Assembly (NCBI RefSeq): GCF_044324875.1
Contig: NZ_CP172185.1
Direction: 5' to 3' (one strand)
Length of the DNA stretch: 64,000 bases
Source: Escherichia coli
GTDB lineage: Bacteria; Pseudomonadota; Gammaproteobacteria; Enterobacterales; Enterobacteriaceae
Below the pieces are notes generated by a model. That model worked only from the letters and a program-made list of their open reading frames with translations. It was not told the DNA's origin and did no database searches. Shown one piece after another: positions 8,480 to 8,825 of the stretch. Made by a program: the position numbers and the translations under genes. Within the stretch, counting starts at the first letter, position 1. Each line of letters opens with the position of its first letter.

Positions 8480-8825
8480 ATCTTCCCCATCTATATCGGT
8501 TAACTGATATCGCTCACTTGATGCCGGATAATTGTGTCGATTGGCAACAGTGTACTCTTTCGTACAGCCAGAATGTGGCAGACTGAGGTGGAATAGATAA
8601 CGTCCGTATGCCCGCTGACCACCTCCGGGCGGGAGAGTGTGGTATCTGACATCATCATTTTTCCTTTTGGTTTATAAACGAAAACGCCAGCCGTATTCAG
8701 GCTGGCGTCAGGGTAATGAAGCGTGGTGAGTGATATTCACCGGTTCTGGTGCAGAAGCTGCAGATGACGCAGGGTACGGACATCCTCTCTGGCCTGTTCG
8801 ATACAGGGCAACAGTGCTGCCGATG
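8480..8825 (-). pseudogene. Remnant second copy of a yeeW-like 3' end, intergenic hairpin and DUF4942 5' end (truncated)
   Basis: Reverse complement of 8650-8825 aligns by eye to 46790-46960 (yeeW-like 3' end and ggctggcgttttcgtttataaac hairpin); 8490-8640 encodes MSDTTLSRPEVVSGHTDVIYSTSVCHILAVRKSTLL, resembling the N-terminus of the DUF4942 protein at 46983, then diverges. Confidence 0.5.

What the first reader, a model, noticed from the sequence alone, without database searches (positions are those of the whole stretch)
8480..8825. Inverted partial second copy of the yeeW-DUF4942 junction abutting the heme-uptake locus
Seen in sequence: 8650-8825 (reverse strand) aligns by eye to the 3' end of the yeeW-like gene and the intergenic hairpin at 46790-46960, and 8490-8640 encodes an N-terminus resembling the DUF4942 protein, after which similarity stops. 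This is the footprint of a second CP4-type element end in opposite orientation, pointing to recombination between island copies or successive insertions. It marks the xylose/HNH segment (1-8400) and the heme/IS segment as separately acquired blocks.
Basis: seen in the sequence. Interest (0 to 1): 0.4.

Follow-up and report, generated by a model that had tools for sequence, protein, structure and literature searches.

The report
Decayed end of a second genomic island
The flagged stretch is a real but dead leftover of the far end of a second, leuX-type "CP4-like" genomic island lying backwards inside a larger Phe-tRNA island, and its right edge is the scar of an 11.5-kb deletion that removed an IS2 element; this is ordinary island decay, not a new kind of feature.

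Summary
Window 8522-8823 is an ungapped, inverted 302-bp copy (254/302, 84%, E 7e-92) of 46812-47113: the DUF957 ('yeeW') 3' end, its terminator and the first ~45 codons of DUF4942.

It is not a duplicate of the local copy. It is 95% identical to leuX-island copies such as E. coli 042. It is the distal terminus of a leuX-type CbtA/CbeA island. Read on the minus strand the order is DUF957', terminator, DUF4942', a truncated HTH gene, then a degenerate leuX 3'-end att repeat at 8258-8240. An HNH / phosphorothioate-sensing nuclease pair follows, syntenic with native leuX loci.

The left truncation (DUF4942'|'HTH) is old: 1,378 of 5,426 complete E. coli genomes share it. The right junction (8823/8824) was found in no collection searched.

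E. coli LH50-c preserves the precursor: same left block, IS2, 10.1 kb, then the DUF4198/heme-receptor module, collinear to the Phe-tRNA att repeat. The window equals that arrangement minus 11,468 bp. The deletion starts 1 bp outside the IS2 left end and is rejoined at a 2-bp GA microhomology. This fits transposase/IEE-type IS excision, which is inferred, not shown.

Verdict: an ordinary mosaic-island remnant, low interest.

The parts
8522..8823 (-). Inverted partial copy (copy 1) of the DUF957-terminator-DUF4942 junction
   Evidence: 254/302 identical to the reverse complement of 46812-47113, ungapped, E 7e-92. Window 8237-8823, which contains it, is 95% identical to the leuX-island copy of E. 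coli 042.
46812..47113 (+). Partner (copy 2): 3' end of the DUF5983'-DUF957 fusion ORF, terminator, and start of the intact DUF4942 gene of the island's own CP4 module
   Evidence: DUF5983_N and DUF4942 Pfam hits; CbtA and CbeA immediately upstream.
8737..8823 (-). DUF957' pseudogene: last 28 codons plus stop ([28 protein letters not shown]), N-terminus missing
   Evidence: RefSeq marks it as a pseudogene missing its N-terminus; alignment.
8683..8709 (-). Intrinsic terminator hairpin downstream of DUF957 (GACGCCAGCC-TGAATAC-GGCTGGCGTT then a T tail)
   Evidence: Conserved in all copies.
8500..8658 (-). DUF4942' remnant ORF (52 aa). About 45 codons are homologous to the DUF4942 N-terminus, then 7 foreign codons and a stop. 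It lacks the Pfam DUF4942 domain, which covers residues 87-218 of the intact protein.
8399..8527 (-). 'HTH transcriptional-regulator pseudogene: C-terminal 42 codons only. It is fused to DUF4942' by an old deletion with its junction at ~8522.
   Evidence: The identical junction occurs in 1,378 of 5,426 genomes. The same junction sequence is present in all leuX-type copies.
8240..8258 (-). Degenerate leuX tRNA 3'-end direct repeat (attR remnant) of the leuX-type island. Homology with 042, TO6, LD27-1 and 7_29_23A starts here.
   Evidence: LD27-1 has TTCGAGTCCGGCCTTCGCACC at this position.
7230..8099 (+). Phosphorothioated-DNA-binding HNH restriction endonuclease (intact), lying beyond the att remnant
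   Evidence: NF045808, 441 bits against a cut-off of 180. Syntenic and ~70% nt identical to the truncated allele at native leuX loci.
6412..7050 (-). HNH endonuclease, partner of the above
   Evidence: 65% aa identity to the HNH endonuclease at native leuX loci, in the same order and orientation.
8822..8825 (.). Deletion junction GCTGCC[GA]|TGTCAG. GA is a 2-bp microhomology. 11,468 bp (A + IS2 + 10,136 bp) are missing relative to LH50-c.
   Evidence: The junction is absent from 5,426 E. coli genomes, the GTDB representatives, the metagenome contigs and the protein index.
8824..9210 (-). Native 3' flank, terminator and 3' part of the DUF4198 gene of the heme-receptor module
   Evidence: 100% identical to ECCNB12-2, MRY15-117 and LH50-c.
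9211..10541 (+). IS2 (1,331 bp), a simple insertion in DUF4198 with the 5-bp target duplication GGAAT (9206-9210 and 10542-10546)
11033..13003 (-). TonB-dependent heme/hemoglobin-family receptor
   Evidence: TIGR01785, 413 bits against a cut-off of 317.
47936..47957 (+). Phe-tRNA 3'-end direct repeat (TTCGATTCCGAGTCCGG-CACCA), the attR of the main island, followed by the pheU terminator and cadC
   Evidence: LH50-c has the same variant repeat at the end of collinearity.

Best explanation
The flagged sequence is a non-functional remnant of the distal (attR) terminus of a leuX-type CbtA/CbeA 'CP4-like' integrative island. It lies in inverted orientation inside a larger composite Phe-tRNA island that ends next to cadC. 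Shown: on the minus strand the unit runs DUF957' (28 codons), terminator, DUF4942' (45 codons), 'HTH (42 codons), ~140 bp, then a leuX att remnant at 8258-8240. An HNH / phosphorothioate-sensing HNH nuclease pair follows, syntenic with native leuX loci. Two separate truncations shaped it. (1) An old internal deletion fused DUF4942 codon ~45 to the tail of an HTH gene. This junction is identical in about a quarter of complete E. coli genomes. (2) The right edge arose in two steps. First, IS2 came to abut DUF957 after ...GCTGCCGAA; this state survives in GF43, LH50-c and others. Then, in the window's lineage, 11,468 bp were deleted: the flanking A, IS2, and 10.1 kb carrying the TRAP-transporter, DsbD' and IS66 genes. 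That deletion joined ...GCTGCCGA directly to TGTCAG..., the 3' flank of the DUF4198/heme-receptor module, across a 2-bp GA microhomology. Inferred: the left end of the deletion sits 1 bp outside the IS2 left inverted repeat, which is where IS2 transposase makes its strand transfer, and the ends are joined at a microhomology. The most likely mechanism is therefore transposase-initiated IS excision repaired by microhomology-mediated end joining (IEE-type). A different IS2 copy later inserted 387 bp away in DUF4198.
For: Repeat. Lineage: 95% identity to 042 over 8237-8823 against 84% to the local copy and 86% to the GF43 selC copy. Complete modules ending in the same DUF957-DUF4942'-'HTH-att unit at the leuX/nanS/fim locus. 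att remnant and shared homology boundary at 8237-8240. Syntenic HNH pair. Left junction in 1,378/5,426 genomes with identical junction sequence. Junction sequences. Precursor LH50-c: window 936-8823 is 99.92% identical; then A, IS2 and 10,136 bp; then window 8822-9210 and 10542-12782 at 100%. Collinearity continues to the same Phe att repeat. The 10.1-kb segment is natively contiguous with DUF4198 in ECCNB12-2, which lacks the left block, so the window junction is the derived state. LH50-c and GF43 also keep one more DUF957 base (A) than the window. IS2 strand transfer 1 bp (90%) or 2 bp (10%) outside IRL: PMC3299598. IEE/transposase-dependent IS3-family excision with adjacent deletions from a few nt to >40 kb, and MMEJ activity: PMC9943667.
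Against: The IS2/IEE mechanism is inferred from geometry only. The 2-bp microhomology makes the exact break ambiguous (1-3 bp from IRL). No IEE gene lies in the window and the rest of the source genome is unseen. LH50-c is a relative, not the actual ancestor: its island is at pheV rather than pheU, its CP4 module is only 87-92% identical, and it has a 5-kb PTS/GH1 insert near xylA. How IS2 first came to abut DUF957 is unresolved. No genome shows IS2 with DUF957 on both sides, and IS2 lacks a target duplication in both LH50-c (CCGAA/GTCTG) and GF43 (CCGAA/CTGAA). The window's junction was found nowhere else, so it rests on a single sequence.
Confidence: 0.8

Rival explanations
1. One reading: the fragment results from recombination, or an inversion endpoint, between the two CP4-type copies present in this island.
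For: The two copies are inverted and 38 kb apart. Related islands do carry such inverted pairs; A65EC and GF43 also have one.
Against: Copy 1 is 95% identical to leuX-type copies but only 84% to copy 2, so it is not derived from copy 2. The longest perfect runs are 22-24 bp, marginal for RecA recombination. Both edges of copy 1 are explained by other events: the old DUF4942'|'HTH deletion and the IS2-linked deletion. LH50-c has the same orientation, with extra DNA in between.
Confidence: 0.04
2. The 11.5-kb deletion was a spontaneous illegitimate (slipped or microhomology) deletion unrelated to IS2 activity, and its end next to IS2 is a coincidence.
For: Only 2 bp of microhomology, which is typical of RecA-independent deletions in general. 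No IEE or transposase evidence in the window.
Against: The left endpoint falls within 1-3 bp of the IS2 terminus, out of thousands of possible positions. That spot is the known site of IS2 strand transfer. IS-end-anchored deletions are the documented outcome of IS3-family excision.
Confidence: 0.13
3. The junction is one endpoint of a large chromosomal inversion between a selC island (where GF43 and A65EC carry the left block) and the pheU island.
For: The left block is in selC islands in GF43 and A65EC. By my reading of the K-12 gene map (own knowledge), the orientations are compatible with a selC-pheU inversion across oriC.
Against: LH50-c carries the left block, IS2, 10.1 kb and the heme module in cis in one Phe-tRNA island, at 99.9-100% identity to the window. 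A simple deletion therefore suffices.
Confidence: 0.02
4. Assembly artefact: a chimeric join at a repeat.
For: The junction is unique to this sequence.
Against: The join is not inside any repeat. It links a unique DUF957 base to unique DUF4198 flank with 2-bp microhomology. Both flanks are collinear with LH50-c. The repeats are only 84% identical, and the nearby IS2 has an intact target duplication.
Confidence: 0.01

Closest known systems
Distal module of CP4-44 / CP4-57-type tRNA-integrated islands of E. coli (RadC-DUF987-CbeA/YeeU-CbtA/YeeV-DUF5983/DUF957 'YeeW'-DUF4942-attR)
   Same: The fragment is 84-95% identical in DNA to the DUF957-terminator-DUF4942 junction of intact modules. It has the same terminator and is followed by a tRNA-derived direct repeat in the correct orientation.
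   Different: It is truncated on both sides: only 28 codons of DUF957 and 45 of DUF4942 remain. No toxin-antitoxin, integrase or intact tRNA is associated with it. It is embedded, inverted, inside another island. It is a pseudogene remnant, not a working element.
leuX-island distal end next to nanS-nanM-nanC-fimB (as in E. coli 042, TO6, LD27-1, 7_29_23A)
   Same: Identical DUF4942'|'HTH deletion junction, the same leuX att remnant, and a syntenic HNH / PT-DNA nuclease pair beyond it.
   Different: It is not at leuX. In the window it is relocated into a Phe-tRNA island (selC islands in GF43 and A65EC). The HNH pair is a diverged allele (67-70% nt) and the PT-DNA nuclease is full-length here. 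DUF957 is cut.
IS3-family excision with adjacent deletion and microhomology joining (IEE-dependent IS629 excision; Kusumoto 2011 as cited in PMC9943667)
   Same: Loss of an IS3-family element together with adjacent DNA (10.1 kb, within the reported range of a few nt to >40 kb). One endpoint lies at the IS end. The ends are rejoined at a 2-bp microhomology.
   Different: The element here is IS2, not IS629. Dependence on IEE or transposase is untested, and the event is inferred by comparing natural genomes.

Membership tests
CP4-44/CP4-57-type CbtA/CbeA island, distal terminus | Sequence homology to the DUF957 (YeeW-region)-terminator-DUF4942 junction of intact modules | tested here: met
   84% to the local intact module and 95% to 042. 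Pfam confirms CbeA, CbtA, DUF5983_N and DUF4942 in the reference module.
CP4-44/CP4-57-type CbtA/CbeA island, distal terminus | tRNA 3'-end direct repeat (attR) just beyond the last gene, in the same orientation | tested here: met
   leuX-derived repeat at 8258-8240 on the minus strand. It is near-perfect in LD27-1, and homology among the loci breaks inside it.
CP4-44/CP4-57-type CbtA/CbeA island, distal terminus | Intact element: integrase plus tRNA at the proximal end, and TA and accessory genes present | tested here: not met
   Upstream of DUF957' the sequence switches to the DUF4198 flank at 8824. ARAGORN finds no tRNA in the window. It is a remnant, not an element.
DUF4942 protein (PF13708) | Presence of the DUF4942 domain | tested here: not met
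   The 52-aa ORF gives no Pfam hit. The domain lies at residues 87-218 of the intact protein, downstream of the truncation.
IS2 (IS3 family) simple insertion (9211-10541) | 1,331-bp element with IS2 ends (TAGACTGG... / ...GGGGCAAATCCA) and a 5-bp target duplication | tested here: met
   GGAAT on both sides. RefSeq annotates 94-98% identical copies as IS2.
Transposase/IEE-type IS excision deletion | Deletion removes the IS with one endpoint at or next to the IS end | tested here: met
   Relative to LH50-c the deletion starts 1 bp (1-3 bp given the microhomology) outside IRL.
Transposase/IEE-type IS excision deletion | Ends rejoined at a short microhomology | tested here: met
   GA is shared by ...GCCGA|A-IS2 and ...ACATGGA|TGTCAG.
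Transposase/IEE-type IS excision deletion | Dependence on the cognate transposase and on IEE; IEE gene present in the genome | not testable with these tools
   Only 64 kb of the source genome is available. By my reading of the ORF list, no ORF in the window looks large enough to be an IEE-like protein that is not already assigned another identity; this rests on my own recollection of IEE's size.

The most novel reading that the evidence does not exclude
The 8823/8824 junction is a natural scar of transposase-initiated IS2 excision repaired by microhomology-mediated end joining (IEE-type). Its left break would lie exactly at the 1-bp-outside-IRL position where IS2 makes its figure-of-eight strand transfer. 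If so, the precursor (LH50-c), an IS2-retaining alternative product (GF43: IS2-adjacent deletion) and a secondary derivative (A65EC: 30-bp IS2 stump) would all be preserved in wild isolates as a small natural series of IS2-driven island erosion.
Probability: 0.4. Interest if true: 0.25.

Novelty: already known. Interest (0 to 1): 0.12.

Why it matters
The finding mainly helps annotation. Window 1-47,958 should be read as one composite Phe-tRNA island of the LH50-c type. That island carries an embedded, inverted leuX-island terminus, rather than being two blocks that recombined with each other. The case is a clean example of how E. coli islands erode and reshuffle. An old internal deletion is inherited by a quarter of strains. 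IS2 hits the same module repeatedly, at different sites in TO6, LD27-1 and GF43. A private 11.5-kb IS-linked deletion then places a dead gene stub directly against a heme-receptor module. None of this changes what is known about these element families. The only mildly useful point is that this is a natural junction consistent with IS excision plus microhomology joining, for which a precursor-like genome exists.

Tried and rejected
1. A pheU/selC/thrW/aspV/serX/argW/ssrA att repeat near the fragment: only chance-level hits, apart from leuX (8242-8255) and the true Phe repeat at 47,935. The leuX hit alone had E=3.6 and became convincing only after cross-locus comparison.

2. IS2 inserted in an otherwise intact DUF957 at CCGAA, the hoped-for first step: a synthetic-junction search found no direct junction.

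3. GF43 state formed by recombination of two IS2 copies: no genome has the predicted simple insertion at CTGAA with the native left flank, and the right junction occurs only in 9 genomes that also carry L|IS2. A single IS2-adjacent deletion is the simpler account.

4. I first took window 35010/35011 for a second island seam and ORF 33882-34901 for an IS110 transposase. Both were wrong. The ORF is a LacI regulator and the sequence is continuous in MRY15-117.

5. selC-pheU inversion across oriC: the orientations are compatible, but the cis precursor LH50-c makes it unnecessary.

6. Sibling sequences with the window junction: none in the complete E. coli genomes, GTDB representatives, metagenome contigs, or by exact look-up of the junction-spanning 79-aa ORF.

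7. Function for the 52-aa DUF4942' ORF: no domain, and many non-synonymous changes plus an indel among copies. Treated as a pseudogene.

Full report
**1. Observation**

A self-BLAST of window 7900-9500 against the whole window gives one strong non-self hit. Window 8522-8823 matches the reverse complement of 46812-47113: 254/302 identical (84.1%), no gaps, E 7e-92. The match covers three things:
- an intergenic intrinsic terminator (minus strand 8709-8683);
- the first ~45 codons of DUF4942.

The partner copy belongs to an intact module. Pfam finds CbeA antitoxin (45644-46012), CbtA toxin (within 46043-46513), a DUF5983_N-containing ORF (46476-46898) and DUF4942 (46983-47768).

**2. What the fragment is**

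It is not a copy of the local module.
- The stretch 8237-8823 is 95% identical to a locus in E. coli 042. It is 100% identical to loci in GF43 and A65EC, but only 84-86% identical to the intact DUF957-DUF4942 junctions of the window and GF43.
- In 042, TO6, LD27-1 and 7_29_23A the same unit closes a complete CP4-type module: Ag43/GTPase ... DUF932, antirestriction, RadC/JAB, DUF987, YeeU, CbtA, DUF5983, DUF957. That module sits next to nanS'-nanM-nanC-fimB, the leuX island site.
- In all of these, DUF4942 is already cut at about codon 45 and fused to the last 42 codons of an HTH regulator gene. The junction sequence is identical in every copy (...TTATCCGGCATCAAGTGAGCGATATCAGTTAAC...).
- A 201-bp probe across this junction finds it in 1,378 of 5,426 complete E. 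coli genomes. It is therefore one old, inherited deletion.

**3. The att remnant**

- ARAGORN finds no tRNA in the window.
- A short-BLAST with tRNA genes gave a weak leuX hit at 8242-8255 on the minus strand.
- Cross-locus comparison made it convincing. On the minus strand the window reads TTTGAGTCAGGCCTTCGCA, 042 reads TTTGAGTCCGGCCTTCGCACCA, and LD27-1 reads TTCGAGTCCGGCCTTCGCACC. The leuX 3' end is TTCGAGTCCGGCCTTCGGCACCA.
- Homology between the window and all four leuX-type loci begins exactly inside this repeat, at 8237-8240.

The minus-strand unit 8823->8240 is therefore the distal (attR) terminus of a leuX-type island.

Beyond the repeat the window carries an HNH endonuclease (6412-7050) and a full-length phosphorothioated-DNA-binding HNH nuclease (7230-8099; NF045808, 441 bits). 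Native leuX loci carry a homologous pair in the same order and orientation (67-70% nt, 65% aa), with the second gene truncated. So window ~6.4-8.8 kb is one syntenic piece of a leuX-locus terminus.

**4. The surroundings**

- To the right of 8823 the window is a standard Phe-tRNA island. Its order is DUF4198 (interrupted by IS2), a TonB-dependent heme/hemoglobin-family receptor (TIGR01785, 413 bits against a cut-off of 317), IS66, ugpB, a phytase-like esterase, MurR/PTS, a YadA-like protein, transketolase, PTS-ascorbate, LacI, ProQ', then the CP4 module.
- Window 8822-32260 is collinear with MRY15-117 at 98-100%, except that an IS66 copy (13780-16311) is inverted there. MRY15-117 (94%) and ECCNB12-2 (98%) also cover most of window 26000-48500.
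- The island ends at a Phe-tRNA 3'-end repeat at 47936-47957 (TTCGATTCCGAGTCCGG-CACCA). The pheU terminator and cadCBA follow.
- The IS2 at 9211-10541 has a perfect GGAAT target duplication, so it is a simple insertion.
- To the left, window 1-8823 (porin, xylA, MFS, GH43, the HNH pair and the fragment) is 99.96% identical to a block inside the selC island of GF43.

**5. The right-hand breakpoint**

| Source | Sequence at the breakpoint |
|---|---|
| Intact DUF957 (042) | GCTGCCGAACCTG |
| Window | GCTGCCGA\|TGTCAGTAGG |
| Native DUF4198 3' flank (ECCNB12-2, NGF1) | ...ACATGGA\|TGTCAGTAGG |
| GF43, A65EC, LH50-c | GCTGCCGAA\|TAGACTGG (IS2 left end) |

The window junction is absent from all 5,426 complete E. 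coli genomes and from the GTDB representatives. It is also absent from the metagenome contigs and from the exact-protein index.

LH50-c supplies the precursor arrangement in cis:
- window 936-8823 matches at 99.92%;
- then come one A, IS2 (1,331 bp) and 10,136 bp (TRAP transporter, IS110', DsbD', IS3, IS66);
- then window 8822-9210 and 10542-12782 match at 100%;
- collinearity continues to the same Phe att repeat.

The LH50-c array lies at pheV, next to yghD-gsp-sslE-glc.

The 10.1-kb segment is natively contiguous with DUF4198 in ECCNB12-2, which lacks the left block. The IS2-bearing genomes also keep one more DUF957 base than the window. Both facts make the window junction the derived state: an 11,468-bp deletion with a 2-bp GA microhomology, whose left end lies 1 bp (1-3 bp allowing for the microhomology) outside IS2's left inverted repeat.

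**6. Mechanism (inferred)**

IS2 transposase joins its cleaved right end to host DNA 1 bp (90%) or 2 bp (10%) outside the left inverted repeat (PMC3299598). [quoted passage not shown] IEE has microhomology-mediated end-joining activity and is reported in over 30% of E. coli assemblies (PMC9943667). The geometry here fits that pathway, but nothing in the window tests it. A spontaneous illegitimate deletion that merely happens to end next to IS2 is the main alternative.

Related derivatives exist:
- In GF43 and eight other genomes, IS2 is retained and joined on its right to window 35011 onward. This is native DNA in MRY15-117, so GF43 most simply reflects an IS2-adjacent deletion.
- A65EC keeps only 30 bp of IS2, followed by a truncated antirestriction gene.

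**7. What it is not**

- It is not evidence for exchange between the two copies in the window. They are different lineages, and the longest perfect runs are 22-24 bp.
- The seam between blocks is at 8823/8824, not 8400. The xylose/HNH block and the fragment travel together.
- An inversion between the selC and pheU islands was considered. The cis precursor makes it unnecessary.
- The 52-aa DUF4942' ORF lacks the Pfam domain and shows unconstrained change among copies. The stubs are pseudogenes, as RefSeq annotates their counterparts.

**8. Verdict**

The feature is an ordinary, already-understood kind of thing: a decayed terminus of one tRNA-integrated island embedded in another, trimmed by an old deletion and by a recent IS2-linked deletion. 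Interest is low. The only mildly notable aspect is the natural series of IS2-associated states that allows the deletion to be reconstructed base by base.

Noticed in passing
window 9211-10541: IS2 (1,331 bp) interrupts the DUF4198 gene of the heme-receptor module, with a perfect GGAAT target duplication. It is only 98.1-98.8% identical to the IS2 copies abutting the fragment in GF43 and LH50-c, so it is probably not the excised copy re-inserted.
   Followed up: yes
window 47936-47957: The Phe-tRNA att repeat lacks one G (GAGTCCGG-CACCA), so ARAGORN and a 3-mismatch search both miss it. LH50-c has the same variant at the end of its island, where a further integrase-bearing element follows in tandem.
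   Followed up: yes
window 6412-8099: An HNH endonuclease plus a full-length phosphorothioated-DNA-binding HNH nuclease (NF045808), a likely type IV-like restriction pair. At native leuX loci the second gene survives only as a ~150-bp stub.
   Followed up: partly
window 46476-46898: The 'yeeW-like' ORF is an in-frame fusion of the DUF5983 N-terminal domain to the DUF957 reading frame, caused by an internal deletion. In other genomes these are two separate genes of 489 and 198 bp.
   Followed up: partly
window 44962-45594: The ~645-bp hypothetical gene between DUF987 and the YeeU antitoxin is intact in GF43 and MRY15-117. Here it is split into overlapping ORFs in different frames (86, 142 and 56 aa), so it is probably frameshifted.
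   Followed up: no
L007 ~7560-7580, L008 ~6290-6309, L009 ~6800-6821: At the leuX att remnant of TO6, LD27-1 and 7_29_23A, the motif CCTTCGCA is repeated three times in tandem (CCTTCGCACCTTCGCACCTTCGCACCA). The window and 042 have a single copy.
   Followed up: no
window 8380-8823 vs L008/L009: Divergence is unequal across the old DUF4942'|'HTH junction. The DUF957-DUF4942' side is ~12% diverged between leuX-type copies, while the 'HTH-to-att side is only 2-5% diverged. This suggests gene conversion from paralogous CP4 modules up to the junction.
   Followed up: partly
window 13780-16311: An IS66-family element lies immediately right of the TonB receptor region. The homologous IS66 copy in MRY15-117 is in inverted orientation on the other side of the DUF4198/receptor pair. 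LH50-c matches the window here.
   Followed up: partly
window 936-1085; L014 2717-7937: Between the porin gene and xylA, LH50-c carries an extra ~5.2 kb: a PTS-cellobiose/GH1/LacI cluster plus yicS' and adenine-deaminase' fragments, which are selC-neighbourhood genes. The window's porin end is only 89% identical to LH50-c's.
   Followed up: no
L001 7826-9156; L002 9826-9855; L007 ~7940-9270; L008 4961-6189: IS2 has hit this leuX-type terminus independently at several sites: in DUF957 (GF43/LH50-c), in DUF4942' with a 5-bp duplication (TO6), and between the att remnant and the HNH stub (LD27-1). 042 has another IS3-family element in DUF5983.
   Followed up: partly
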